This document shows, in pieces, positions 1,202 to 24,346 of a DNA stretch of 64,000 bases (positions within the stretch are counted from its first letter, which is position 1; each line of letters opens with the position of its first letter). The notes under the pieces are model-generated. The model saw only the letters and a program-made list of their open reading frames with translations. It made no database searches and was not told the DNA's origin. Made by a program: the position numbers and the translations under genes. This DNA is from Atractiella rhizophila (taxonomy: Eukaryota). Location: contig MU271194.1 of the NCBI GenBank assembly GCA_021432655.1, positions 81,522-145,521 on the forward strand, written 5' to 3'.

Positions 1202-2875
1202 TCACGAGGACACGTTCTTCCGTCGTGCGACTGCAAGCACCAAAGCGGCAGCAGCGTAAATCCCCTTTGTACCCCTGTCAGTATCCTGAGTTCGAGGAGG
1301 GAGGGAGGGACAAACAGCAGAAAGAAACCAAGAAAAGTTAGGTGCGCTATCCAATGTAGCACTGTAAACCGACCCAAGAATGATGGGAGAGATCGTCAAT
1401 CCAATGGCGTCCAAGACCGCAAAGCCTTGTATAAGGCTATCTGTTCGTTTAACAAGCTGGGTCATGAATGCTTGTATTGATGGAGCCGCCCCACTCGACA
1501 GTCCCGCCATGGCCAGACCCACGAGAAGGCCCACCCAGGACTTTGAAAGACCAATAAGAAAGATGCCGCCACTATTGAGTGCGAAGGAGAGGGAGGAGAA
1601 GAGTAAATCAAAGTGATTCGGTCCAGGAGACGACGAAGGTGCTTCGGAGAGTAGAGGTGTAGTGATGCTGGGTGTGGTTGGAGGTGTTGAGCGGCGCATA
1701 CCCGAGAATAGTCGCCTACCGTAACTCGATAGTGGTGGGAAAATAAGGATGGAGTATATCGACTGTTCGAGGAGTGTTATGATATGAATGAGTTAAAAAT
1801 AAATGGGGACGGCGAACCTGAATGCCCAGATAATATGCGAGAAGAAATCCAAGATCCTTTTCCGAATAATGTAACCTCCCAGTTGTAAACAACATGAGCA
1901 TCTAACCCGTTTGTTAGCCCGCGGCTCTGGGAACAGTGACAATATCGAACCTGATTGAAGAACCCCACCACCAGCAAGCTCAGAAAGTACGCAGCACCAC
2001 ATCCCAGTAAAGCATAGCTCCTTTGCCTTCTTGCTCTCCCAGCCGCGTCAGGCGGGAATAACAAGCGCTTTGCCCTTTTATACCCCTCTTTGAAACCTGT
2101 CGAGCCCTCTTTTTCTTCCTCTTTCCTTTGTAGCTTGAGCTCGGCTTTCGCCTCGTCAGTCAAGGACTCTCTGACGGTTGCAAGGACGAGCAGTAAATTG
2201 AGCGACTGGACAGCTAGAGCAATCCACAGAGGAAAGGTCAAGAGTCCGGTTCGATTTGCGATCCATCCCCCTCCACCTGTACTGACGGCAGTCGCAAGGC
2301 CAGCCATGCCCCTTTGCACGGCAAACCAACCTGCCCGTTTATGCATTTTGTCTTCTGGCAAGAGGTCGATGATGTAGTTCTGCCAGGCGAGATTGAAAAG
2401 AAATGGTCCCAAAGAGCCAATGGATACGACTGCTAGCATGAGGAGTAGGAATGAATGCAGAGTCAGGGATGCGATGACGAGGGTTGTGTTCAGAAGAGAA
2501 GCGAGGAGGGCATAAATGACGAGCCGCTTCCTCCCTATCCTTTGATTCTTTAGACCAGCACTTAAAGCAGATAAGAATCATACCCCGGGTGTTCACGAGA
2601 TGAGAAAACTCCTTAATACTGACTAGGCTTATGATGCACTCAAAGCACACCATCGCGCTCATCAGTCCACTCTGAATACGCTCGACCTCAACTGAGGAGC
2701 ATTTCGAGTCGTCCAGCTCCAAATCGAACTCTTGGAAGTAGAATCGGCATGCCCATTGACGATAGATCATGGGAATAATTGGCATTGGGAGTCCATGGGC
2801 GACGTTGTAGAGGAAGATTGGCGAGAGGATGGAATAGAGCGTTGCTTTCGGTGCAAGTCGCCGCAGCTTGAACAT
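1202..2875 (-). CDS. Major facilitator superfamily transporter (SLC46/tetracycline-efflux-like), multi-exon
   Basis: ATG at 2875. Multiple hydrophobic helices run across ORFs 2339-2875, 1777-2439 and 1202-1699, including ACRFY...CSSVEVERIQS and LTISPIILGSVYSAT. Short GT-AG introns join the pieces. Confidence 0.8.
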
Positions 2876-3823
2876 TGCGGACAGTCTGCAAGGAATGTTA
2901 GTTGGTTATCGAAAAGTTGCAGCACAGACAGGTTATGCCAATTTTAAGATGTTGAGCGGTGGGAATTCTGCAGCACAACTTGTTGGGGAGAACAGTCTGC
3001 TAGAGACACAATGGACGGCGACAAAGGCTGACGCGTATTTTGAGCCATGTGATTTTTTTTGCGCAAGATATAATATACACGACTTTTAGGTCAACCAGCC
3101 TGCTGCATCATCTGCAAGTGCGCATAGAGTCTAACAACACCCAAACTAGGCAAGGTAAGAGGGATACTGGCGGCATTAGGCGGAATTTGATACAGTTATA
3201 CTGGAGAAAACACCACCTGGCTCTCAGTGACAGGGCTCCCCCTTTCACACAGAAACGAATACGTGAAGAGCGTGTTCCCCTCACCATCCACCTCAATATG
3301 CAGCAACAGCGTATAACGTTTAGCATACATGAATGATATGCATGCTGATTGGAACAGACAATGTTTCAGGTTAATCTCGACTGAGCCATAGCATCCAACA
3401 CAAATTTTAAGGATTTCAGGCCAGAGACAACCTCAAAGCGAGGAATCTGTCGCGTCTAACCGCTCCATTTCTTAGACCGCACCCTTTTGCTGGTTCAAAA
3501 GCCCGACCAGCTCATCATCGAAGCGTGTAACCAAGCTCCAAAGAGCGGATGGAGTTCAGCAGTGTCCGGCTTACCAGCCGCTGGATTAGAAGAAGGTGAT
3601 GCGGAATCCATTCCTTTTTTGTGAATTTAGTAAATTTTCACCTCAAATGGACGATCTGCGCGACATAGCCAGAAAGGCGACTCAAACTATTGTACGATTT
3701 GGTACGATCTTGCCCCGAAATGAGAAAGGACGACTGGACATTGTTTTTCGCACTGATCTAAACAATTTACATGAAGTCGAGGCATAATAGCGAAAGAAAT
3801 GCAACTTTGACTACCAACTGCAC

Positions 3824-4204: not shown

Positions 4205-4534
4205 TTAACGGTCTTTCACGCTACTTCGTTGAAGAATCATACCCCGGGTGTTCACGAGATGAGAAAACTCCTTAATACTGACTAGGCTTATGATGCACTC
4301 AAAGCACACCATCGCGCTCATCAGTCCACTCTGAATACGCTCGACCTCAACTGAGGAGCATTTCGAGTCGTCCAGCTCCAAATCGAACTCTTGGAAGTAG
4401 AATCGGCATGCCCATTGACGATAGATCATGGGGATAATTGGCATTGGGAGTCCATGGGCGACGTTGTAGAGGAAGATTGGCGAGAGGATGGAATAGAGCG
4501 TTGCTTTCGGTGCAACTCGCCGCAGCTTGAACAT
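4205..4534 (-). pseudogene. Truncated duplicate of the MFS gene 5' exon
   Basis: MFKLRRVAPKATLYS...HLVNTRGMIL matches the MFS first exon, then runs across the duplication junction into a stop at 4205. Confidence 0.8.
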
Positions 4535-7124
4535 TGCGGACTGTCTGCAAGGAATGTTAGTTGGGTTGCAGCACAGACGGGTCGATGCCAATTGTAACAT
4601 GCTGAGGCAGAGAAATCCATTCGTTGGCGAGAACAGTCTGCTAGAGACGCAATGGACGGCGACAAAGGCTGACGCGTATTTTGAGCCATGTGAATTTTTT
4701 TTGCGCAAGATATGCACGACTTTTAGGTCAACCAGCCTGCTGCATCATCTGCAAGTACATATAGAGTCCAACTACACCCCAACTAGGCAAGGTAAGAGGG
4801 ATATTGGCGGCATTAGGCGGAATTTGATACAGTTATACTGCAGAAAACACCACCTGGCTCTCAGTGACAGGGCTCCGCCTTTCACACAGAAACGAATACG
4901 TGAAGAGCGTGTTCCCCTCACCATCCGCCTCAATATGCAGCAACAGCGTATAACGTTTAGCATACATGAATGATATGCATGCTGATTGGAACAGACAATG
5001 TTTCAGGTTAATCTCGACTGAGCCATAGCACCCAACACAAATTTTAAGGATTTCAGGCCAGAGACAACCTCAAAGCGAGGAATCTGTCGCGTCTAACCGC
5101 TCCATTTCTTAGACAGCACCCTTTTGCTGGTTCAAAAGCCCGACCAGCTCATGATCGAAGCATGTAACCAAGCTCCAAAGAGCGGGATGGAGTTCAGCAG
5201 TATCCGGCTTACCAGCCGCTGGATTAGAAGAAGGTGATGCGGAATCCATTCCTTTTTTGTGAATTTAGTAAATTTTCACCTCAAATGGACGATCTGCGCG
5301 ACATAGCCAGAAAGGCGACTCAAACTATTGTACGATTTGGTACGATCTTGCCCCGAAATGAGAAAGGACGATTGGACATTGTTTTTCGCACTGATCTAAA
5401 CAATTTACATGAAGTCGAGGTATAATAGCGAAAGAAATGCAACTTTCTGCACTTGCGTCATTACGTCATGCACAAAGCTCTCATTGCCCAAAAGCCCCGA
5501 CTAAGGACAGATAAACGTACCTAAGCACCTTTACTCTGATTCCAGTCAATTCCAAGAATGCTTCTCAGCTGCAATCAATCAGCCAATCCCAGTTCGTCGT
5601 TTATCTGTGTTTGGGCGGAAGGCGTCACTAATTGTGATCGCAATTCCGGCTGCTTGAACCTTGGCTTGCTCCAGTTCAACCAAGTCGAACTTGCTCGAAT
5701 TCGCAGGCTGCCCTATAAGAGCCTTGCCTTGTCCTGTCCCTTCTGCTCTTCACGGCTGGATATCGTCAAATTCGCACCTCGGGGCTTTCCGTCGTTCGGT
5801 AACACGGAGCGCTTCTTGTCAGCTCAGCTTAACGGTCTTTCACGCTACTTCGTTGGTTCCGTCAGCTTGTTCCGGCGCATAGTTCCTTGTGCCACTGGGG
5901 AGAAGATCAGGAGGAGAAAACGAGAATTTCAGCTTGCTGAAAGGTGTTATAAGGTCTGGATCTGGCATTGAGCAACAGCTGCTTCAGGACAGCTTGCTTT
6001 GGAGGAGTAAGTAAAGGAAGACTCGTTCATTTTTAAGGTAAGCTTTTGCGTTTCGTAGAAAAAAGAGGATGGTAGTGTCTCTTTTGATGCCTACTTGGCA
6101 CAATTCCGTGCGCACTTTTAAGGAGAATCTGCACTCTACTGGTTTATTTCGACGAATATTGTTCAGCTCGGACAGCTGCGTACTATTGCCTTTTTGACGA
6201 AGTTTTGAGCCATGATATGATATGGACGCATAGAGAGAGGAACCGTCCTTAGTGATTCCACCTCAGCCTGATCAACTGCTTTTGTGTTTCATGCCACTAT
6301 CTAAATTGCAATATTCTCCCTCTACAATTTGTTCCTCCCAACCTGCCCGGAGAAAGCGTTATGCTGTAGATGTTTCTGAACACAACTCGGTGACCGTGCC
6401 CTTTTAATTTAGTTAGTTCACACTTAGCGCCGTGGCTGCCTCTGAGCTCCTGCCAGTCTATTCCATCCGAGCCTTATTGCTACGGCATTTTCCCGCTTGT
6501 GCTTTTCATTGAAAACTGGAGATTTCCTGCATGAGTTGGCGTTAGACAAAGGACCTGGTTGTATCGTTGACTATTGATTGCATCATTGTGTACCTTTCAC
6601 AACTAGAACTAAAGATATTTATTATGTATCAACCCGAATTTCTCAGTAACTTTTCTCAACACCCTTCCTGCAAGATTGGTCCAGAATCAAGGGACTGTTG
6701 GCCCAAGCAGCGTTTCACTGACAAGTGTGACAATGCTTTGGAGTTCCATTTGATAGTGAATGAAGTGTTCTATTTTGTTCAGAGATGGATATATAACTGA
6801 AGTTACTATCCAACTAATATGATCCCAACTCTGGCGCACCGTCACCTTTGGAGCGATTTTCGATGCCTTGCGCTAATTCCCCATCCTCACAAGTAAAGCG
6901 GCCGTTACAATACCGTTCCAACGGATACTGATAATAAAATTTTGATTTGTATCTCACATATGTTATCCGTGCGCGATGCACGCGGATGGGGGATTCTTCC
7001 GTTTCATGTCCCAAACCCGATCTCTATCCCGGTCTCTTATGCCTCTGCCGTCTCGTCTTTTCCTCTCATTCTTGTTGCTACTTTTTTGCGTCAAAACCGA
7101 CCCTATTCACTCATTAACATTAAC

Positions 7125-8364
7125 ATGGGGCTCTTAGACAATTTACACATCTCGATGAATCCAAACACAGTCCTTCTCGTCGTTGTCCCTCTTGGATCGG
7201 CCCTGATCCTTGGCCTTCTTTTCTTCTGGATTTGGCTCAATCGAAGACGTGCGAGGCAAGCCAGAGCGCAAGTTAAGGATTGGAGAGATGGTGTCAAACC
7301 AGAGGGGGAGGGAGATGCTCTGGAGGTAGTTGTCGGCGTCAAGCAGCTGACAGAAAAAGAGCTGGAGAGCGGGTTGTACAATTCGTACTCTGAAAAACAC
7401 TCGGTTTGTGCTTCTTTACAAGTAAAAGGTACAATTATTGACCGAGGCGCTGTAGGAGTTCAACGTTGTTGTTACGCCTCCTCCCGTCACGCCACCGCAT
7501 GCGTTTACGGCTTCGATGCGGATCGAACCCTGGCAATTCCCTCCATCGCTCCCTGGGTTTGAAGTCCCTACCACCCCGTCGACCTTCACGATGCCCAGCA
7601 CACCATCACCTGCCTATGCCCCTCCATCTCGTGCTCCATCTTATAAATCCACCACCAGCCGCTCTCCCTCTTCTTCTCGCTCTCCTTCGACCAAGCTTCC
7701 TAGGTTCCCAAGGTTTCCTATATCGCCAAAGTCTCCAACGTTTCCAAAGTCCCCTCGGTCTCCTAACTCAGCACCTGACCTGACCATGGACGACTTTTTC
7801 TTGCCTTCTGACACGCCTTCCGTGCCACTGCCCATCTCTGCGGCGATGGCGATGTCTTCGTCTAATCTAGAGATCATCACACCGCCGCTTCATCTCATGC
7901 CGAACAGTCCAATCAGTGCAGAGCTGAGGAGGGTGGAGAGCGAGAAGAGGAGAAATTTCGAAGGCAAAGAAGCGGAGAAAAGAACACTTCCTCTCCGTCG
8001 CGAGGAGGGCCTGTACTTCAACGGCACTCGTTTCGAAGGCGGCGTTGGATTGGAAAGGGCAAGGAGCGAACGTATCGTCCGATCGGCCAGCGAGGGAAGG
8101 GCGAAGATGGCTGCCCGCAAGCATCGACAGGCGGAGAGCGAGGGTGGACGGTCGAGAGGAGCCAGGAGGAGCGCGACGCTGAATATGCCTCGAGAGAAGA
8201 GGAGAGAGCGTGGAAGAGGAGCGATCCCTAACGCTGCTGTTACGCCTTTTCAACTCGATTCGCCTCCCTCGAGGACGTCCAGCCTTAATAAACAGCATAG
8301 ACGACCAAAAGCTCCTCCATTTACGAGAGAGGGTTCAGTGTCCTCCATCCAAAACATCGCTTAA
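7125..8364 (+). CDS. Hypothetical single-pass membrane protein with Pro/Ser/Arg-rich disordered tail
   Basis: ATG at 7125, N-terminal hydrophobic helix (VLLVVVPLGSALILGLLFFWIWL) followed by NRRRAR. One intron at ~7404-7455 leads into ORF 7516-8364. Confidence 0.7.
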
Positions 8365-11854: not shown

Positions 11855-13074
11855 ATGGATCCCTCAAAAGCCACTGCAGCACTTAAGGATTTCTCTCTCC
11901 CTCCCTCGCCTCCCAAGACTGTTGTCATAGTCGGCGCTACCTATGGAGTAGGAGCTGCCGTTGCACGGCAATGTGCTCGTATTGGATGCGCTAGAATCTT
12001 CATTATGGGAAGGAGCGAAGATAAAGCTGAGGGTGTCTTAAAGGATTTAAAGCGGAATGGCAAGGACTACTTGCAGGTTGCCTTCGTAAAAGGGGATGTT
12101 TCGTACGTTTCTCAATCATGTTTCCGGTAAAAGGAAGCTAAGCCAGCTGCGACTGTAGCAACAAGAAGGGGATGAGGAAGGCGGCAGAGGATCTCAACAT
12201 TGCTCTCGGCACAGGACAGATTGATTATCTGGTTTGTATTCCCCTACAGATGATTCTAAAGTTACGCGGTGATGATCCATCCGGTATAGTTCATGTGCCA
12301 AAATGGGGTACCATCCGGCATTATCAGAGAGAACGACGACGGGTGCGTCTCCTATCCCGTTTATGACTCTGATGGTTTGACTTTTGCTATTTTCTAGGGA
12401 AGAGATCGCGTTCGCTATACAAACTCTTTCCCGTTTCGCTGTCCCATACCTCCTCATCAAATCCCACTCACTCGCACCGAAAGCGAAAATCATCACAATC
12501 GCGAACTCAGGAATGGACTTTGCTGAGCTTTCAACATCTGACCTTTCGCTCAAAGAGAGAGCAAAAACGAGGTCCAAGATAACTTTGACTCAAGATCAGT
12601 CGAAGAGGGATAGCTGCGTCCTTGATACCATCACAATGGTCCGTCATTCAGTTCCCAAAGACCAGAACTCTGATTCCAACCATGCATTGTAGGAGTTCAA
12701 TGCACGTTATCCTGAATACAGCTGCTACAACATCTGGCCAGGATTAGTGAAAACCGAATACTTCTTCGAGAACAATTCTCTTCCTTTCCCACTCTCAACG
12801 ATTATGAACCTCGCGGTTCGCCTGGTGGGAACAACGCCGGCTGCTTTCTCCAACACACCAGTCTACGTAGGCACCCGTCTTTCTAACCGCATGTGGACAA
12901 GTCGTTCTGAATTTCTGGCAGATTGCTTTCCACCCAGAGGCAGAAGAGAGGATGGGTAACGGGAAGCTTTGGCAATATACCATGAAGCCGAGCAAACCAG
13001 GCAGTTGGGCTCAGAACGATGAGAACAGGAAGAATTGTTGGAATGCTCTCAAAATTATGATTGGAGAAAAATAA
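11855..13074 (+). CDS. Short-chain dehydrogenase/reductase (NAD(P)-binding Rossmann fold)
   Basis: VVIVGATYGVG, IFIMGRSEDKAE, FVKGDVS, IDYL and NIWPGLVKT across several exons. Stop TAA at 13072-13074. Confidence 0.82.
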
Positions 13075-13804
13075 TGTAGAAGTAGTCCATCTAACTTGAA
13101 CTTGACGACACATTTAAGTCCAGAGATCATGTGCAGCAAGGTCGAATGAAGAAAGGTACTATGTTGGCAACAAGAACTCCTTAGAGAACATGGAAGGAGT
13201 CAGAGTTTTGAGACTTCTGTATTGAGAACAGTTGTTTTCACCACGGCACTTCCTCTTATCCTCCAAAACTCAATAATGTATACTTCCCCTTTCATTCCAC
13301 GACCGGTTCAGGAATAGGCTATATCATCCAGGCTTACTAACCTTCAAACTTCAAATTTGAAGCGTTGTCTCATCCTGCGCCGCGGAAGCACTCCTTCCTC
13401 GGCACCATGTTGCTTGCAAAATTTGCATGAAATGTTGCAAGAAAAAAATGCTGACTGTCCGTCAGAGAGGTTCCGAGGGATGACGCGATGACGCGTCGCC
13501 GGAAGTCAACATTGTGGGAACTCTGGAAGATTGTTAATGTAACAGCCATTTGGTACTAATACGCTGACCAGATTTGTGGCTCCACGTTCGCGCACACCCA
13601 GGTAGTGGAGCGCGCGAAGTGAACGACGGGGAGGTCTATCGGCCCCAAACATGGCATTCTTCGCCCAGAAATCAATGAACGGGCTTTCGCATATACCGCC
13701 TGCTTCCGAGGCACTATATAGGTAGGCAAACGGTTATCATGTCCAAAGCCCTTTCGCCGCCCATCACACAGTAAAACTCGATAAAAGCAGCAAACTTCAA
13801 GGAG

Positions 13805-14026
13805 ATGGCTACAGCAACATCGCCCGCACCTGCCTATACCCATCTCTCCCCACCGCCTTACGCCCCCTCTCCTCCGCGCTCAATATCGAGCGAGACCTCT
13901 GCATCACTAGTGACAGAATCAGAAGCGAAGAAGGAGCCGGAGAGCTTTGTTTCATGGTTCTTTGGTTTGTTCAAGGACGATGGGAAGAGAGAGCAAAGTA
14001 GGGGATGGAGAAATGATAGGTGGTGA
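13805..14026 (+). CDS. Small (73 aa) uncharacterised protein with PPPY motif, ending RNDRW
   Basis: ATG downstream of a TATA-like CTATATA (~13715). A paralog at 21731-22001 shares the C-terminus. Probable GC-AG intron in the 3' UTR (14039-14089). Confidence 0.65.
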   Translation: MATATSPAPAYTHLSPPPYAPSPPRSISSETSASLVTESEAKKEPESFVSWFFGLFKDDGKREQSRGWRNDRW

Positions 14027-14497
14027 CGGGTGGTGATGGCAAGTGTGCACAATTACTGGGGAGTAAACAGTGCTGATGCGACTGAACAGCCCTGAAGACG
14101 CGGACAGGTTGCTACACTAGCACCAGCCAAACACGTCAGACATTTCGGATTTCCAAAACACCTTCCTTATCTGAAATTCGTAAATTCGTTGTAAATATTC
14201 AATACTTTTGGATATCGCGCGGCTCATACACTACATACTGCATGATGTCAATCCCATTACTCTGTACTACTTTTTCATAGAGCTCAAAGGGCAGCATGCA
14301 GCATATGAGCAATGTCAGTTGGTGCTGCCTGAATGAATAAAACAAATTGAAGCGCACAATGCTAACACTCACCATTCACTTAATGCCAGTCAGTTACGAG
14401 AGGTCTTTCTCTTACTACAGGGTGGTAGATGTAGATACACCCTTAGGGGTTCAACCTATTAGATATTGAGACCAGCCAGTGAAGGCGAAGTCTTGGG

Positions 14498-15641
14498 ATG
14501 GTGAAATCTAAAAGGCGTAGCCTAAAATCGGGTTCGTCTTTTATCTTACCTTTGATTCCATCGCATTTATTGACAAGACTGATTGCAGCGCTGGAGCGCA
14601 TTCAGTCATCCTCGAAAAAGAGGAAGCTGGACTCTCCCTCCACTGCTGCCGCCAATGGAGCTGAGGACGGCCGAATGGCTAAAAAAGCAAAGCCAAATCC
14701 GTCCGTGGCGAAGTCGCAAGCGAATCAACAGCCTGTTATACCTTTCGCGCAGGGAGAGTCCGTCCTGCTTGTTGGAGAAGGGGATTTCACATTCACCCTC
14801 GCACTTTTATCCCACCTCTCGTCTACCTCCGCGACCGATACAAACGAGGATGGCGCTGACGAAGGAGATCCGCGAATCCTCGCGACCACTTTTGATAGCC
14901 TTGCAATTTTGAAGGAAAAGTATCCGACGGTGGAGGAGACTGTGAAGTCAATCGAGGAGCGAGGAGGGAAGTGTGTCTTCGGCGTGGATGCGACGAAATT
15001 AGAGAAGTACAAGGAAGTAAAAAGGAAGGGCGGGTGGGATAAGATTGTGTTCAACTTCCCTCATTCCGGTACGTCCTCCTCTTTCTCTCACACTCTAGGA
15101 CTGACAGTACCAACCTGTAGGTTCAAGCATCGCAGATCAAGATCGCAACGTCCGCACAAATCAATCGCTCATCCTCCTCTTCCTACGCTCAGGACATCCC
15201 CTTCTACGACCTATCTCCTCCACCTCCCCCTCCTCGCGCACTCTACGCCGCACTCCCACCCCGGACTCAGATGTTGAGCCTTCTCTATCACCCGTCTCTC
15301 CAGCGCGCTCGACATCGGACCCGTGTATCCTCATCACCCTCTTTACCGGCTCACCATACACTCTGTGGTCCCTTCCCGATCTAGCAAAAAACAAGCGCTC
15401 AATGTCGCGGACCGTCCTCGAGCCTCCTCTGAACGGACTCAAACAACCGACGTATGAGGTCCGGAGAAGCTTCAGATTCCCTGCTCAGAAATGGGGTGAG
15501 TTGGGATACGCTCATCAGAGGACGAATCCGAACTTGAAAGACGGGCGAAAGAAAGGAAAGGTTGGAGGAGGGGAGGGAGAGGCCAGAACCTGGGTGCTTG
15601 TTCCTAGGGAGGAGAAGCGCAAAGAAGACGAGAGTGATTGA
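14498..15641 (+). CDS. BMT5: DUF2431 / Bmt5-like 25S rRNA (uridine-N3)-methyltransferase
   Basis: Motifs LLVGEGDFTF, ATTFDS, FGVDATKL, DKIVFNFPH, ITLFTGSPYTLW and GYAHQRT. Introns at ~14531-14587 and 15068-15120. Confidence 0.8.
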
Positions 15642-15812
15642 ACGTTTTGACCTGAAGCTGGAAAGCTTGACTCTGCAGAGATGATGCATAGCACAGAGAG
15701 TCGATTTATCGACGGTTTGCGATAGATAGCCAATGAGTTCTACCGGATGTATCTAAAAGTACACAATCACTGTACACGCCAATAACTAATATGCCCAACA
15801 ATCTGATCCATC

Positions 15813-18094
15813 TCAAACAGCAGGTCCCTTATAAGGGCTTTTCAGCTTTCCATCCAAGCTCAGCTTCAACTGGAGAGCGACCAGCTTGGAGAGGTGTCGA
15901 CTGCTTGGCTGTTGGGTTTGAAGAAACCAAAAACCAGGGTCTACAGTCGTAAATGAGGTGAGATTCCATGGACTGTTGGAAACAGGGAACGGAGGCTTAC
16001 GACCAGATTGCACAGCAACTCCCTTCTGCTCAGCTTCTGAGTAGATTCCCTGCACATCTTCCATTTTGTTCGCTTCCTCTATGCCAATATATTTAGAAGC
16101 TGTTTCTCGTTGATCGTTATCCTGGAATCTATGCGTCGATTTAGTCAGTCTACACGCTCCATCAGGAATGAGGACGAACCCCGTGGCCATGACAATCACA
16201 TCGGCTTCATCTACGGTGCCATCAGAATATTCAACTCCCTTGTCAGTGTACCTGACGATTTGTTTCTTGGATCGAATCGTCACACGCCCATCGAGGACCA
16301 TGTCCGCCATTCCACAGTCGATGAGATGACCGGCTATGGAGATGCAAACAGTCAACAGTGACCGCAGGAGTGGAAGGAGAGAAAGACGTGCCATGTTTAA
16401 CGTAGATGCAGTTCCAGAAATCCTTCTCCTCTGCAATCATCATTCCCTTGGCTTTCATGCTATCATAGAACTCCTTATTCTGCTCTGCCGAGAACTTGAT
16501 CCAGCCATTCAACAATATCCGTCCGATAGAAGGAGGGAGGGATTCGCTCATCTGGTCGGAAATTTCGATCGGCGTGAAATCGTTGTAATGTTCGTAATGT
16601 TTTCCAATCGCCTCCTCGCAAGTGATCATGCACGACGTGTTACGCTGATAAAGGACGACGGAGGAGAGACCAAAGCGGACCATGTCCATTGCGATATCGT
16701 GAGCTGAGTTCGCCGCTCCTTGAAGTGTAATGTGTTTAGGAGAAGGAAAGAATGTGCAGGCGTAGAAGGCATACCAATGATTAGTCCTCTTTTGCCTTTC
16801 CACGGCTCTGCATTCCAGTATTTGACACTATGAACGATGTCTCCCTTGAACTTCTCCTAAACAATAGCACATTAATGGACACCTTTACTGGAGGAGATGC
16901 AGAGAAAACGTACCCGCTCCGGAATTTCCGGTTCGTAAGGATCCGTGTTCCCTACTCCGGTGCACATTACAATGTGCTTCGCCACAATGGTTTTCACTCC
17001 GTCCTTTCTCTTAATCTTATTCGTCCACTCCTTCCGATCTTCATCCCATTTTCCCTCCTCCCACCTGCTCTGCATGTAGACAGGTAGACCCAAAGATTTT
17101 CGATAACTCTCGTAGTGATCTGATAGCTGTTGAGCCGTAATAAAGACAGGATAGTTTTCTGGGTAGCGAAGAAACGGCATGTGCCCTATTTTCTTCGGTG
17201 TGTCTGCATGTTATTGGATGTATCAATGTTATATGCATGATCAGGTGAGGAGTACGAACGCAGTTTGCAAGCCTCGTAACGTGTGCCCCAGCTGTCGCCA
17301 CACTTCTGGTTGCCATCCACTACGACGTGAGGGATTTGGAAGGACTTGAGAAGGGCTGAGAGGCAGAGACCGGATTGGCCAGCGCCTGGGCCAATTGTTG
17401 TCAGTTTTCTCAAGGCGGCTAACAGTCGAATGGGTCACATACCGATAACGAGGATGTCGGTCTGTTCAGGGAAATTGCCGTCTGGCGCACCATTGGCAAT
17501 CGGCTTCTCCTTCATCTTCTGTTCATCAAGGGTTTCGACGCCATCGAGCGCGAAGATGACTGTATATACAGTCCAAAGTTTCCACCTGTCTTCTGCAACC
17601 CTCACAGCTCGGAAGCTCCCCATGCAACTAGCTTTCGGCTCTTCGATCTCAAACACGAAGCCAGTATCAAGCCAATGAGTCTTTTCTGAGAACTCCACGA
17701 TCTTTCCCGGCGCATCTTGAAGGCGGAAAGAGTGCGGTTTCGCGTGAGGAGCGAGGGCTTGAACAGCTTTGGAGATATTAGGGATTCCATGGATGGATCG
17801 AATCGAAGCTATTTCACCACAATCACCAGAACATATCAGCGTAAGAGGCAAAGGGGAAAGAAAGTACGAACCAGTGAATGCGAGCTGATCACGCCAAACA
17901 GCACCATCAAGGAACAAGTTGTTCAAATCGTCGTCCTTCCCTTCAAAAACCTTTGCCAGCTTATCCACCAATTCCTTTCCTATGGAATTGATGTCCGTGC
18001 TCTGTGGAATGGGAAGGTTGGTAGTAGGAAAGGAGACGGGGATAGAATCAAGGGGTGCCGATTCGGCAGTGGGGCGGAAAGTGTCTCTTGCCAT
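15813..18094 (-). CDS. Flavin-containing monooxygenase (class B) with N-terminal extension
   Basis: FAD motif G-AGQSG, FMO fingerprint FKGDIVHSVKY (FxGxxxHxxxY), NADPH motif G-AANSAHD and late VMATGF. Confidence 0.88.
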
Positions 18095-18481
18095 TTCGCA
18101 GACTGATTATGTTCTTGTTATCAGTGTGAGCACCCGATGAAGCACGTAAGCTGACTGGATCGATGGATCTGTGTTGGTACAAGCACCAGGTTTTAAAGCT
18201 ACAGTGGCGAGCTGGGCGAAGAATCGGTTCCTCCGTCCCCACTTTACCGGCTAAATATTAGAAGCACGCATTCTCATTCCTGACAATGACGGTTATCAAA
18301 GCGAGCTGGAGAGCGACCGTATCCCAGCTTTGCGCACGAGCTGATTGTGGGAGGCAGGCAGAAAAGGCAATGAAGTTAATAGCGGCAGATGTTCAACATT
18401 GCACTGCCCCACTGACGAGAACAATTCATTGAAGTATTAAGAACACCTTGAAGTGAAGGAAGGGACAAATAGTCCACCATC

Positions 18482-18611
18482 ACTCATTCATGGTACTCAT
18501 TCATGGTACTCATTCATGGTACTCATTCATGGTACTCACTCATGGTACTCATTCATGGTACTCATTCATGGTACTCATTCATGGTACTCATTCATGGTAC
18601 TCATTCGTGGT
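18482..18611. repeat. Minisatellite, 10 x 13 bp ACTCATTCATGGT
   Basis: Counted directly. Unit 5 is ACTCACTCATGGT and unit 10 is ACTCATTCGTGGT. Confidence 0.97.
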
Positions 18612-19325
18612 ATAAATATCAAACCTACCCTCGGAGACAGTGCACACAATCGTGGCGCCTTCAGGGCAATGACTGACGGTTGGAGTCGGTTGGAGGATAG
18701 GTGTATTTGCTATCACAAAACATTTCTACCCTCTATTTCTATTGGGAGAGGAGGAAACATGGTACTTATGGGTTTCAATTTTAAGCTGACTGTCGCTTAG
18801 AGAAAGAAGCTGATATAGAGAACCATTACAAAAGTGCGAGGTTATGACAGCAACGAGTTCCATCGTAATGCTTTGATCCGAAACACTTTCCACACCTTCC
18901 AATATACCTTTGAGGCAAATAAAGCCATCTTACCCTTTTAAACATGTTTTCATCTCAACTGCGCTTCCAAATGCTTTTCCACATTACAAAACCTCCAGTC
19001 GCGTTGCTGTTACGCGGTTGTAGTGAGCAACATGCCCTCAGCACTTGAGTCAACTGGGCCACGCATCACAATATATGTCAAAGCATGGCGTTACCAACAC
19101 GGCGTGGGCGAAGCAAAGAGTTGGAGAAGAGTCGAAGTGGCGAGGGAATCGTTGAGGTCGCAGCCGCATGCTTTTCCGTCCGCTAACTGATCAGCGATCA
19201 GCGACTGAGCTGATTCAAAAGCTGATCAAGATCAAAAAGTACGATCAATCAAAACTCGAATCACTTGCCTGAGATAAAAGACACACAAAACCACCATCTG
19301 AAGGAAAGTATTTCTCAGTAGCAGA

Positions 19326-21156
19326 ATGAGTGCGACGCATCCTTTCTCCTGCCTCACTTGCTCTCTTTCTTTTGCCACTCCGACGCTGCACAGAGATCAT
19401 TACTCATCCGAGCTCCATCGGTACAACGCTAAGGTACGCCACTCATCATCTTTACCCCGTCTTGCCTCTAGCTCATATGTGCAACGATGTAGAGAAAGGT
19501 AGCGAAACTCCCACCGGTCACGAGGGAGGTATGGGAGGAGAAATTGGGAGCTGGCGCGAAATTGGAGAAGGAGGAAGCAGAGAAGAAGGAGGAGTGGTAC
19601 TGTAAGGCTTGCAGGTAAGTCACAGCTTTATTCATGACAAATGAACCTTTCTGTGTGTTTCCTCGGCCATATTTTTATTATGCTGTCAGGAGCATCCAAT
19701 TTACATTTCTGTCCTTTGATGTTTTAAGTGGCTGCTAGAGTGTATGCATTTTGTCTCTATTGAATTTGTACTCATTGGTTTTGAGAAAGAGGAGGAGTTG
19801 CTTTGATAATTTGTTCACTTTATGCCGTTCCTTTTACATTCTTGCCTGCTGAGCATAAACAGAGCTGACTAACCAACCCTTGGCTCTCAGCAAATCTTTC
19901 TCGTCTATCAATGCGCATCGCAATCATCTCGAGTCCAAAAAGCATCGCGATAATGTCTTCAAGTCTTTCTCAGCCGATTCCATCTCAAAATCACAATCAC
20001 AATCTACCATCTCCAAATCTGCTTCCAATTCTCTCTCCGAAGAGTCCACGGACGTAGCAGCTGTGACACAGTCTCTCGCTTCTGCTTCTCTCGCAACGAC
20101 ACCAGGAGGAGACACAATGGATGCCCTCGTCAAATCCCGTCTCGCTTCCCACCCTCCGCTCCCGAAAGGAACCTGTCTCTTCTGTCACTCTTCGACCTCC
20201 TTCGCTTCGCTCGATGAGCTCACAACCCACATGCAGCGCAAACACGGTTTCTTCATTCCCGACTCTGAGTATCTCGTCGACCTTCCAGGCCTGCTGGGTC
20301 GATTGGGTGAACTGGTTGGCACCTGGAATGTGTGCGTTTGTTGTGGGAAGGGGTATGGGGGTGAGGTCGTTATTGAACAGGTCGAGGAAGAAGGAAGCGA
20401 GAAGAAGAAGGTGAGGGAGAGAGATGGATTGGATGCGGTCAGGAAGCATATGGATGCTAAACGACATTGTCGCTTGCCTTGGGACACCGAGGAGGAACGG
20501 CTTGATTATGCGGATTTCTATGATTACCGACCTTCTTATCCAGATTATAAGCCACCGAAAAAGAAAGAGGAGGAATGGGAGGACACAGAAGATGTTGAGG
20601 ATGACGAGGGAGAGGTTGTTGAAGTTTCGGCATCGGAGGACGAAGAGAGCGAGGAGGAAGAGGATGAAGACTTTGAGAATACGATTCCCATTTCCTACGG
20701 TTCAACACCTTATGAACTCATCCTCCCCTCTGGCATTCGAATTGGTCATCGTTCCCTTCGGAAGATTTACGCTCAAAATCTCGCTCCGCATCTCATCAAA
20801 TCCGCTGCCTCTAGATCTGGTCCTTCGAAGGATTCCCAGCTCGTAGATCGTCTAGCAGAGAGCGTCACGACAGGAAAGAGTCTTGCATTATCGAGGCAAG
20901 GTTTAGTGGCCGCGAAGGGAGGTGGAGGGAAGTTTGGGAGGGGTGGAGAGCTGGTGAAGGCTAGAAATGCGGGAGAAGCCAAGGAAGCTGGAAGACATAT
21001 TAGGGAGTATAGGGACCAGAGGAAGATCAGTGAGCAACAGTTCGTCACTGGTATGAAGAACAAGTACGTTTTATTCCCTCTCAGTCGATTGTCGGCCATA
21101 ATAAGATATGCTGTGGTAGTAATCAAAAACACTTCAGAGATCCTCTGCTCCAATGA
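19326..21156 (+). CDS. REI1: Rei1/Reh1 C2H2 zinc-finger pre-60S maturation factor
   Basis: MSATHPFSCLTC...HYSSELHRYNAKRKVAKLPPV, WYCKAC-KSF...HLESKKH, CLFC...HMQRKHGFFIPDSEYLVD, ELILPSGIRIGHRSL and C-terminal NNQKHFRDPLLQ*. Confidence 0.93.
19640..19845 (+). ncRNA. Candidate intronic box H/ACA snoRNA within REI1 intron 2
   Basis: 276-nt intron (19615-19890) in a ribosome-biogenesis gene, where neighbouring introns are ~55 nt. ACA at 19836-19838 lies upstream of the branch point. Boundaries are approximate and no folding was computed. Confidence 0.4.
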
Positions 21157-21730
21157 GCATGAGGTTGGATGTAGGAGAAGTGGAGAGGTGGAAAGAAGGT
21201 GCCAGTGCATAGTGCAGTGGAAATGTATCGAAGTGAAATCCATATTCTAGACTCCTCTCATCATCATCCGTCCTACCGCCTCCAAGCCGAAGGTGGAACT
21301 TGAAGGAAGTTTCATTTGTGGTGCATGTGCATACCAGTCAGGACGATGAGCATTCAAACATCGCCAGGAACATTGCATGGATCCTGCTTAGTTGAGGACA
21401 AGATTGCATTAGTCGAGGGCAGAGATTTGTCATATTTGGTAAAGGCGAGATTTAGGAAACTAGTTCATCCCTCTCTCTTGCTGTCACCAGAACATGCTTG
21501 GGACACTTGCGAAATGATGCATTCGCTGATCCCATTCTCACTGTCGTGGTGGTACACACTGGCAAATCCAAATTACTGCCATATTTGTACAAGCATAATC
21601 TATACCATCAAGATGATGCGCTAAAATAAGCCTATGTCCTTCGAAATCGTGCGGAGGGTTAGGACATACACCGTCTTCTATAGAAGAAATAAAGCTTTGT
21701 CCAGTGAATCAGAATAAGGCGTACCGGAGT

Positions 21731-22001
21731 CTACCATCTATCGTTCCTACGCGCTCTTTGGTGTTCCTTCTTCCCATCTACTACTTCGTTCTTGAACAAC
21801 CTAGCTAATTTGGAGAGGAAGTTCTTGTCTTCGGTTGTAACGTTCATCGAAGAATCTTGATCCCCTTCAGCTGCTATAATGACGTTGAGACGAACGCGTA
21901 TTCCGATCTGAGTGTCGTCAGCCCTTGATTCTCGAGGAGAATAAGCCGGAGGTGGCTCTTCTGATGCAGGGAGAATATCGAGGTAGGGGAGAAGAAGGCA
22001 T
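21731..22001 (-). pseudogene. Paralog of the 13805 micro-protein with a 1-nt frameshift (pseudogene or consensus error)
   Basis: MPSSPLPRYS, then one extra base in GGG at 21969-21971, then PASEEPPPAYSPRES...NFLSKLARLFKNEVVDGKKEHQRARRNDRW*. The span of 271 nt is 3n+1. Confidence 0.65.
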
Positions 22002-22957
22002 TCTGTCAGAATCTTCTCTGATTATCACCAGCGTTGGGGGCATGGAGGCAAAGCTTCACCAATATAACGCTTTTATCCAGCCAATGCTGTCAAGTCCGGC
22101 GCGCTCCATGAACTCCGCTCCAGTCGCCCAATAGTAGACTTCCTCGCTTTTATCCGTGACCTTCAGATTTTCCAGACAGAGCAGAATTTCCCTGTCTTTG
22201 TCACCCTTTGGCACGAGATGCACTGGGCTTTGTTCTCTCAACATGCCGAGGAATGCTTCTGGAGTCAGCCCATGCGCGGATGAGCGGGCAGTTCATTATA
22301 TTATCTGCTTGTCTGTTAGTTTTCCCAATATATCCTTATGGCAGAATCTCTCCCCGGCCTGCAAAATGAGGCATTGAGGGTCAAGGTCTCGAAATGACGG
22401 ACTGTAGCGCACAGTGACTCGCGAACAGCTTCTTTGGAAGGAGTGAAAAGGTTGTCATGCACTTTTGACAAGGGCAGTCTATGTCTTAGGGATGCCTCCT
22501 TCTATCATGAGAGAGACTCTAGAGGCAATAACAGCAACACTAGTAAGCCAACGCCTTCAGTGGCAACTGAGGAAGATTGCTTCGTGAGCACAACAGCAGA
22601 ACAAGTGTCTCGCCGAGCCTTGGCTAGCTTCAACGTCTGGGGTGTAATCAGTGCCGAAACCGGGGTGTAAATCCATCGCGCTCCTCGGGAGGTGCAACCC
22701 GATATATAAAAAGGCTAAGCATTGAGTTTGTCGTTCCCAACTGCTTGCTCGAAAGCGTCTACAGAGTAAATGTGCCAGGGCAGCAGGGCATCATATCGCG
22801 ACACCAATTTCATTTCAATCGTCACTGCAATGAAAAGGTAGGTCCAGTCAAACATCACCCAAACAAGAAACGCAAACACAGAAAGTTGTCATCCCAAGCT
22901 GATTAATGGATGGTATTAAACGTAAGCTTTCTGTTCATAACGACAACGATGCAGGAT

Positions 22958-24346
22958 TTAACCCCTTCGGATCTCTCCAACAGGAAGGACGAAGAAGGAG
23001 TTGTCGGGCGTCAGAATGCCAGCCAATCCAACATACTGCAGCGAAGGGAGTCAGCGATATGAAACAGTGACAGAACAGAACAACGTACCCAAGCGATGAA
23101 AGCTGTTATGATTCCGAAGGCACCTCCAGCTTTGTGGACCTTGACATTCTCAGTGAACTCTCCGGCCATCTGTTGCATGGACTCAGTGAGAACCGTCCAA
23201 ATATCATGGTAGATCACGTACGAGAAGAAGGAAAGTGATGTCAAGGAAGAAGAATAGAGCGATGAGTCCCCACGACGATCGCAGCGTACAGATGAGCATG
23301 AGCGTCGTGAAGATGAACCAGGTTGCTATTTACACATAGCATGAGAACGACGCGTTTTGGAAGGTGCGAAGGACAGACCTAGGTAAATACCGACGGATGA
23401 AACGAGTTGACCCTCCTCTCCTTCAAAAGCAGCCAAAATACCAGAATCTGGAATGTAGATGGCAGCGAAGGAGAGCCAGAAAGCACCGTAGGAGGAGAAA
23501 GCAGTAGCACCGAAAGTGTTCCCGGCAGCGAATTCCCACATACCTGCATGGCACAGGAACGATCAGTCCTCAGCTCAGGATGAGGAAACAACACAGACCA
23601 GCAAGTAACTGAGCCAAGCCACCATATCCAAGTGCAAGACCCACAACGACGTTAGGAATAGTGACGTGCCGGGCTTGGACATTGATCATGGAGAGGAAGA
23701 AGGTGGTTCCGGCGAAACCCATCAATCCCAAAGGAGCGGGATTGGCGAATTTTCTGTGGTAGACCGGGAAAGCGGGTTGGGAGGTGTCAACTGGGTGTCC
23801 ACCAGGAGTGACGGCACGGTTCACGGGCTAAAGAAGCATGAGCGTTCAGGCCGCTCCAAGGAACCTATGAGCAAAACCTACAGCCCCATGAAAGGCTGGA
23901 GAAAGATGTCAGCGAGGACCAGAGATCATGACGTGAAACGAGGAGAAAGCTCGGAAAGTTTACACCACGAAGAAATACATATGGTCTGACCGTTCATGCA
24001 CGTTCAGGCAACCTGCAACATGCAACAGATCATCGAAAGAACAGTCACAGCACGCTCTGGGCAAAGTCTCCCGGTCCGTGTCCCGGACAATAGACAGACA
24101 ATGTCCGACAACTTCGCATACTGGACGAAAATAGCGAGACCAGCTTCTTGGCAATCCTCATATTTTCGAGGCAACCCCATTGGTGCTAGGCTATGGAACC
24201 GAGCGCACGAGAGTACACCTATCTTTGTTCCTATACCTTAGGTGCATTGAAAAAAAACGCGTCTGGCAGCTTCCCCCAAACAATTTTCATGAAAGACAAA
24301 GTAACATACCAACTTTCTCTCCGTTAGAAACACCAGACTCTGACAT
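22958..24346 (-). CDS. Gpr1/Fun34/YaaH (Ady2/Ato) acetate transporter
   Basis: Signature [42 protein letters not shown]. Exon 1 MSESGVSNGEKV (24346-24310), then a 414-nt intron and a 14-nt exon (23895-23882). Confidence 0.92.

What the first reader, a model, noticed from the sequence alone, without database searches (positions are those of the whole stretch)
13805..22001. Unannotated micro-protein family: two paralogs with PY motifs and a shared RNDRW C-terminus
Seen: ORF 13805-14026 (+) ends SFVSWFFGLFKD---DGKREQSRGWRNDRW*, and a frame absent from the ORF track at 22001-21731 (-) ends NFLSKLARLFKNEVVDGKKEHQRARRNDRW*. Both start with a Pro-rich segment carrying PY-type motifs (PPPY; LPRY and PPAY), both have an amphipathic-looking helix before the tail, and both have an apparent intron just after the stop (GCAAGT at 14039; GTACGC at ~21724). 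Protein-level conservation despite divergent DNA suggests selection. Established: [LP]PxY binds WW domains of Rsp5/NEDD4 ligases. Inference: a small ubiquitin-ligase adaptor or regulator family; I do not recognise it as a named family.
Basis: partly seen in the sequence, partly recalled or inferred. Interest (0 to 1): 0.7.

Follow-up and report, generated by a model that had tools for sequence, protein, structure and literature searches.

The report
Two fungal PY-motif micro-protein genes
Two small overlooked genes in this fungus make spliced RNAs for related 73- and 89-residue proteins that look built to bind the cell's main membrane-tagging ubiquitin ligase, but no relatives were found elsewhere and their job is untested.

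Summary
Mostly confirmed. Gene A (13805-14026, +) is an intact 73-aa ORF. Gene B (22001-21731, -) is not one frame in the window: an extra base at about 21970 breaks it after 11 codons. All 5 other sequences covering that site lack the base, and the two assembled copies give an intact 89-aa protein. A-B likeness far exceeds chance (score 93; 0 of 5000 shuffles). Differences pile up at third codon positions in the helix and RNDRW tail. Spliced RNA contigs confirm a 47-nt intron just after each stop; A's donor is at 14043, not 14039. Only these two loci were found in the genome, and no homolog anywhere else. The genome encodes an Rsp5. Best reading (0.45): small non-transmembrane Rsp5 ligands or adaptors, with PY motifs in front and lysines, helix and tail behind. 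Binding, translation and target are untested. The scan had already noted this pair on other DNA of the same genome (e1-7575156). New here: B's splicing, its frameshift and the selection tests.

The parts
13805..14026 (+). Gene A coding sequence, 73 aa (P0001), single coding exon
   Evidence: identical DNA on contig C435 (0 differences in 222 nt); covered by spliced contigs in X3 and X5
13826..13861 (+). A: APAY (residues 8-11, non-canonical) and PPPY (16-19, canonical PY motif)
13940..13978 (+). A: predicted helix, residues 46-57/58, borderline amphipathic
   Evidence: AlphaFold2 H46-57 at low confidence; moment 0.43, p 0.06
13979..14023 (+). A: conserved tail DGK-E--R--RNDRW
14043..14089 (+). 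A: 47-nt GT-AG intron in the 3' UTR, starting 16 nt after the stop
   Evidence: joint 14032 to 14090 with 7 exon letters between, in X3 and X5; sequence
13715..13720 (+). TATA-like box upstream of A (inferred promoter)
   Evidence: the X5 contig begins at 13773, the X3 contig at 13563; contigs cannot fix a start site
21731..22001 (-). Gene B coding sequence; 89 aa in the C435 copies (P0002, P0003), frameshifted in the window
21969..21971 (-). Run of three identical bases (two in other copies): the frameshift; assembly error or null allele
   Evidence: base left out in X1, X3, X4
21941..21986 (-). B: LPRY (residues 6-9) and PPAY (17-20)
21791..21826 (-). B: amphipathic helix, residues 59-70
   Evidence: moment 0.78, p 0.003; AlphaFold2 H59-85
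21734..21778 (-). B: conserved tail DGK-E--R--RNDRW
21678..21724 (-). B: 47-nt GT-AG intron in the 3' UTR, 6 nt after the stop
   Evidence: joint 21677 to 21725 in X3 only
22003..22059 (-). B: 57-nt GT-AG 5' intron ending one base before the ATG
   Evidence: X3 contig 22060-22516 has a 16-letter loose end matching the start of B; an X4 contig crosses it unspliced
22056..22244 (-). 62-aa upstream ORF in B's long leader; in the spliced form its stop lies in frame directly before B's ATG

Best explanation
A and B are a real, old pair of paralogous micro-protein genes, 8 kb apart on opposite strands. SHOWN: ORFs, transcription, splicing, protein-level constraint on the PY region and the helix-plus-tail, no transmembrane segment, an Rsp5 gene in the genome. 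INFERRED mechanism: the disordered N-terminus binds Rsp5 WW domains through PPPY (A) or LPRY and PPAY (B). The C-terminal helix and Arg/Trp tail dock the protein on a membrane surface or on one target protein. Rsp5 is thereby brought to that place and ubiquitinates the micro-protein's own downstream lysines and probably its neighbours. It would work like Sna3 or an ART adaptor cut down to under 90 residues, held peripherally and not by a transmembrane segment. The window's copy of B is most likely an assembly slip or one null allele.
For: Homology beyond chance. Helix+tail: 16 of 30 codons keep the residue against 9.7-11.3 expected under neutral change (1-38 of 4000 simulations), with 18 of 34 differences at third positions. 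PY region: 10 of 22 against about 6 (34-77 of 4000). The middle is unconstrained, 3 of 19. A has 0 differences in 222 coding bases between alleles against 30 substitutions and 14 indels in 784 flanking bases. Spliced contigs exist for both genes. [LP]PxY is in only 10 of 664 small ORFs of this contig. PPAY and PPPY were each 5 of 38 motifs in yeast Rsp5 substrates, second to PPSY (PMC1911201, passages). Rsp5 prefers lysines at least 10 residues C-terminal of the motif (PMC3738095, passages); all 4 lysines of A and all 5 of B lie there, and two are conserved. WW and HECT exons are on contigs C188/C804.
Against: No binding, translation, localisation or target was shown. No homolog outside this genome, so motif conservation rests on two paralogs. 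About 4% of yeast proteins have PPxY and 7% LPxY, and composition alone gives one motif in 2-4% of shuffles. A's first motif is non-canonical and its helix only borderline amphipathic. Codon scores are weak: 88th-89th percentile of 512 small ORFs, below all 10 training genes, and the synonymous-only score is slightly negative. The selection test uses a protein-guided alignment, which inflates identity. B is broken in this haplotype. Lysine placement follows almost automatically from N-terminal motifs.
Confidence: 0.45

Rival explanations
1. Real proteins whose function lies in the conserved helix and RNDRW tail (a short ligand or inhibitor of some other protein). The PY motifs only let Rsp5 keep them short-lived, so they are substrates and not adaptors.
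For: The tail is the most constrained part (pN 0.19-0.27 against 0.37 in the PY region) and sits at the exact C-terminus in both. Lysines lie where Rsp5 would modify them. B has an internal Met (ATG 21847) that could give a tail-only form.
Against: No partner is known. Tandem PY-like motifs with kept spacing are more than turnover alone needs (inference). No C-terminal motif family could be matched.
Confidence: 0.25
2. Decoys: inducible PY peptides that occupy Rsp5 WW domains and so spare other substrates.
For: Small, mostly disordered, tandem motifs, no catalytic or folded domain.
Against: A decoy does not need a conserved C-terminal tail. Contig depth cannot show high expression.
Confidence: 0.1
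3. Real proteins, but the PY-like words are by-products of a Pro/Ser-rich N-terminus, or bind another WW or SH3 protein.
For: PY motifs are common in proline-rich regions (PMC8509885, passages). A Pro/Ser-rich frame at 7456-8361 scores 50-62 against A and B by composition. Other WW proteins exist in the genome.
Against: Both tyrosines and their preceding prolines are kept in register between two paralogs at saturated synonymous distance.
Confidence: 0.12
4. Untranslated or decaying relics: transcribed leftovers of an old duplicate, B already breaking down.
For: Frameshift in window B. Many upstream ATGs and an in-frame stop just before B's ATG in the long spliced leader. Weak codon scores. No homologs.
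Against: Third-position excess. A is invariant between alleles while its flanks differ. 5 of 5 other sequences lack the extra base. One-base indels also break the neighbouring monooxygenase on C435, so such slips occur in coding DNA of this assembly.
Confidence: 0.08

Closest known systems
Sna3 of Saccharomyces cerevisiae (PMC2171029 abstract and outline; PMC3738095 passages)
   Same: Small protein, PPxY motif that binds Rsp5 WW domains, acceptor lysine C-terminal of the motif.
   Different: Sna3 is a membrane protein sorted into multivesicular bodies. A and B have no transmembrane segment (best 19-residue hydropathy -0.22 and 0.42), put the motifs at the N-terminus, and match no Pfam family. 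No sequence homology was detected by any search.
ART / alpha-arrestin adaptors of Rsp5 (search listings and abstracts)
   Same: Soluble PY-motif proteins that bring Rsp5 to membrane cargo and are themselves ubiquitinated.
   Different: ARTs use an arrestin fold to see cargo. A and B are under 90 aa with no such domain.
Single-pass PY adaptors such as Rcr1/Rcr2, Ssh4, Ear1, Bsd2, Commissureless/PRRG4 (names partly recalled; PRRG4 from listing)
   Same: Tandem PY motifs in a disordered, Pro/Ser-rich stretch.
   Different: They have a transmembrane helix and a luminal part; A and B have neither.

Membership tests
Protein-coding micro-gene | Intact ORF | tested here: met
   A intact in both contigs. 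B intact in 2 of 3 assembled copies, broken in the window.
Protein-coding micro-gene | Transcribed and spliced | tested here: met
   Canonical joints: A in X3 and X5, B in X3. The kind of X3 and X5 is not on record; RNA is inferred from canonical joints in several genes.
Protein-coding micro-gene | Purifying selection on the protein | tested here: met
   caveat: two paralogs, protein-guided alignment
Protein-coding micro-gene | Translation | not testable with these tools
   No ribosome profiling or proteomics; codon score only suggestive
Protein-coding micro-gene | Conserved in other species | tested here: inconclusive
   No hit; no fungal genomes could be searched by tblastn, and small ORFs are often missing from predicted-protein sets
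PY-motif ligands of Rsp5/Nedd4 | [LP]PxY motif in a disordered region | tested here: met
   A PPPY; B LPRY and PPAY; no secondary structure predicted there
PY-motif ligands of Rsp5/Nedd4 | A WW-HECT ligase in the same genome | tested here: met
   WW and HECT exons on C188/C804
PY-motif ligands of Rsp5/Nedd4 | Tyr-dependent binding to WW domains | not testable with these tools
Rsp5 adaptor (functional class) | Promotes ubiquitination of a third protein | not testable with these tools
   No target known
Sna3 / PMP3-type membrane proteins | Hydrophobic membrane hairpin and family profile match | tested here: not met
   No hydrophobic 19-mer; no Pfam match at E up to 10
Single-pass PY adaptors (Rcr1/Ssh4/Ear1 type) | Transmembrane helix | tested here: not met
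ART / alpha-arrestins | Arrestin domain | tested here: not met
   proteins are 73 and 89 aa

The most novel reading that the evidence does not exclude
A and B are the first examples of a minimal, non-transmembrane, non-arrestin Rsp5 adaptor: tandem PY motifs joined by a free linker to an amphipathic helix and a C-terminal RNDRW ligand that picks a membrane or target. The family would be hidden in basidiomycete genomes because its ORFs are under 100 codons. B's output may also be gated by a 5' intron whose removal places an upstream ORF's stop directly before B's start.
Probability: 0.25. Interest if true: 0.7.

Novelty: new variant of a known kind. Interest (0 to 1): 0.4.

Why it matters
Known Rsp5/Nedd4 adaptors use a transmembrane anchor or an arrestin fold. 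A working adaptor under 90 residues would define the minimum parts list, and would show that gene sets of basidiomycetes miss such regulators. The constrained C-terminal RNDRW is a ready bait for finding an unknown binding partner. As things stand it is a two-gene, lineage-restricted pair with a plausible but untested function, and the scan had already noted it once.

Tried and rejected
Homolog searches, all empty. Protein database: P0001, 0 of 1 candidate; alignment, 0 of 12; longer proteins, 0 of 743. Profile against 1.84 billion representatives: 0 at E up to 0.001. Exact look-up: 0 of 3. ESM Atlas: none for A; one unnamed cluster at 0.80 for B, within chance range. Metagenome contigs: 0 of 287 stretches confirmed; 2 tail-pattern matches, both off-frame in prokaryote-like DNA. 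Pfam none. PDB sequences best E 1.1. Foldseek 0 of 210 at E up to 0.001.

Third paralog in the genome: the tail query returned 5 of 5 candidates, all A or B copies. Patterns gave 6, 14, 18 and 8 matches (controls 2, 19, 15, 3). The non-family matches showed no family features; the best were L063 (score 68, low complexity) and L089 (E 0.01, directly after a stop). The rest of contig C15 gave nothing.

Two B copies on C435 as a tandem duplication: doubted, because one copy is an island between N gaps whose flanks overlap by 115 identical bases. A or B as last exon of a longer gene: rejected. A's upstream frame closes 10 codons up and shifts between alleles; B's spliced junction makes a stop before the ATG. 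A 5' intron in A (13722-13771): no joint among those shown (4 joints were not shown). DNA-level homology of A and B: only a 14-base match. Recalled motif classes (Atg8-interacting, ESCRT MIM1, PTS1, PDZ class III) are not shared convincingly by both proteins; recalled, not tested by a tool.

Complex prediction with the genome's own WW2-WW3 was not available, so there is no verdict. Paper searches found no description of such a family: (0 papers; 1; 3 listed), 78, 88, 38, and 93 (RNDRW: 2 papers with unrelated titles, listing only). bioRxiv supplements and subscription journals could not be seen.
Full report
Setting. The window is intron-rich fungal DNA, part of contig C15 of a 51.5-Mb assembly. 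Between the two small genes lie a BMT5-like methyltransferase, a flavin monooxygenase-like gene and a REI1-type zinc-finger gene (Pfam; the names REI1 and monooxygenase are my reading of those hits). An earlier scan note calls the organism Atractiella; I did not test this. Contig C435 carries the same region at 94-99% identity, so it is another haplotype.

Observation. ORF A (13805-14026, +) reads 73 aa as described. From ATG 22001 it stops after 27 residues, with LPRY in that frame and PPAY to RNDRW in another. The cause is one extra base in a short run at 21969-21971. Both C435 copies lack it and give 89-aa proteins differing by one Lys/Arg change. Runs X1, X3 and X4 also lack it, and X5 does not cover the site. 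So 5 of 5 other sequences lack the base. These contigs drop minority alleles, so a true null allele in the window's haplotype is not excluded. One-base indels also break the monooxygenase on C435, which fits assembly slips.

More than chance. A and intact B align end to end (BLASTP E 1e-10; 29 invariant columns). The score of 93 was reached by 0 of 5000 shuffles (maximum 49). Among 19,210 pairs of small window ORFs, the best score apart from two recent duplicates was 53. DNA likeness is nearly gone (one 14-base match) and synonymous sites are saturated (pS 0.78, pN 0.39). In the helix and tail, 16 of 30 codons keep their residue against 9.7-11.3 under neutral change (1-38 of 4000 simulations), and 18 of 34 differences are at third positions. 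The PY region keeps 10 of 22 against about 6 (34-77 of 4000). The middle is free. The alignment was protein-guided, which biases these tests upward. Between alleles A has 0 differences in 222 bases against 44 events in 784 flanking bases; neighbouring coding stretches show 0 of 326, 2 of 635, 4 of 866 and 18 of 416. Against the more distant C435 copy, B has 2 substitutions plus the indel in 271 bases, with 12 events in each 400-base flank. Codon usage is weak support: the ORF frame scores best of six for both genes, at the 88th-89th percentile of 512 small ORFs, but below all 10 training genes.

Transcription. I laid 4 of the 22 runs listed. X3 and X5 show canonical joints in several genes, so I take them as RNA; their kind is not on record. 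Both splice A's 3' intron, 14043-14089. The donor is the GT at 14043, not the GC at 14039, in the alleles seen. Both introns are 47 nt and start 16 and 6 nt after the stop. An X3 loose end shows a further intron, 22059-22003, ending one base before B's ATG; an X4 contig crosses it unspliced. In the spliced long leader a 62-aa upstream ORF stops directly before that ATG, and eight upstream ATGs lie in 22516-22002. I infer that B is made mainly from a shorter leader. Translation is unseen.

Family size. The tail query finds only A and B copies in the genome (5 of 5 candidates). Four pattern searches and a profile scan of the rest of C15 found no third member. The second B copy on C435 is probably a mis-scaffolded allele. 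No homolog appeared in any outside library. No other fungal genome could be searched as DNA, so the true range is open.

Anatomy and mechanism. Both proteins have a Pro/Ser-rich start with two aligned motifs (APAY/LPRY and PPPY/PPAY), a variable middle, a helix and the tail. AlphaFold2 gives low-confidence models: helix 46-57 in A; a hairpin at 36-56 and helix 59-85 in B. There is no transmembrane segment; the helix is amphipathic in B and borderline in A. The genome encodes a WW-HECT ligase of Rsp5 layout. Rsp5 WW domains bind (L/P)PxY, and PPAY and PPPY were each 5 of 38 motifs in its yeast substrates (PMC1911201, passages). It modifies lysines at least 10 residues C-terminal of the motif and not N-terminal ones (PMC3738095, passages); all lysines of A and B lie on the favoured side. 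I put Rsp5 binding at about 0.75-0.8 overall, split into adaptor or tether (0.45), plain substrate with a tail function (0.25) and decoy (0.10); incidental motifs 0.12; non-coding relic 0.08. Against over-reading: 4% of yeast proteins have PPxY and 7% LPxY, and the motifs favour proline-rich regions (PMC8509885, passages).

Comparison. It would work like Sna3 (PMC2171029, abstract and outline) or an ART adaptor but belongs to neither family, nor to the single-pass adaptors: the membrane segment and the arrestin domain were tested and not found. Ten paper searches showed no description of this pair; most were seen as listings only, and subscription papers and bioRxiv supplements were out of reach.

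Verdict. A real, undescribed, transcribed and constrained pair of micro-protein genes, so far confined to one genome, with a plausible Rsp5 link and an unexplained conserved tail. The scan noted it before on other DNA of this genome (e1-7575156). New variant of a known kind; interest 0.4.

Noticed in passing
window 22244-22056 (-): 62-aa ORF in B's leader with a coding-like codon score (93rd percentile of 512 small ORFs), one copy per haplotype, no Pfam match. Splicing of 22059-22003 creates its stop in frame directly before B's ATG. Allelic changes are 2 non-synonymous and 1 synonymous, so no sign of constraint.
   Followed up: partly
G000:C435:24450-31364, at window 20982/21097: About 4.4 kb absent from the window interrupts the 3' end of the REI1-type gene on C435; the part searched is single-copy in the genome. 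A 1.8-kb island between N gaps inside it repeats window 20543-22390.
   Followed up: partly
window 18094-17870 (-) versus L012: The C435 copy of the flavin monooxygenase-like gene has two one-base indels in its first exon that break the frame: assembly error or dead allele.
   Followed up: partly
window 12500-23000: In DNA run X1, contigs matching the window's alleles have depth near 100 and the other alleles near 210, hinting at three haplotypes or unequal nuclei; contig depth is a weak measure.
   Followed up: no
window 6960-8364 (+): Gene with a hydrophobic segment followed by a Ser/Pro-rich tail with PY-like words (SPAY, APSY); may be a single-pass Rsp5 partner.
   Followed up: no
window 21120-21730: One X3 contig runs from REI1's last exon through B's spliced 3' end, so the two convergent transcripts probably overlap.
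   Followed up: no
window 13780-13788 (+), 22154-22146 and 22077-22069 (-): The same 9-base GATA/TATA-like word occurs once before A and twice before B; may be chance.
   Followed up: no
window 2339-3787 and 4205-5425: Recent duplication of the 5' part of a transporter-like gene (near-identical ORF starts at 2875 and 4600).
   Followed up: no
window 13400-13500: A's upstream region has repeated short motifs and several 8-14 base indels between haplotypes.
   Followed up: no
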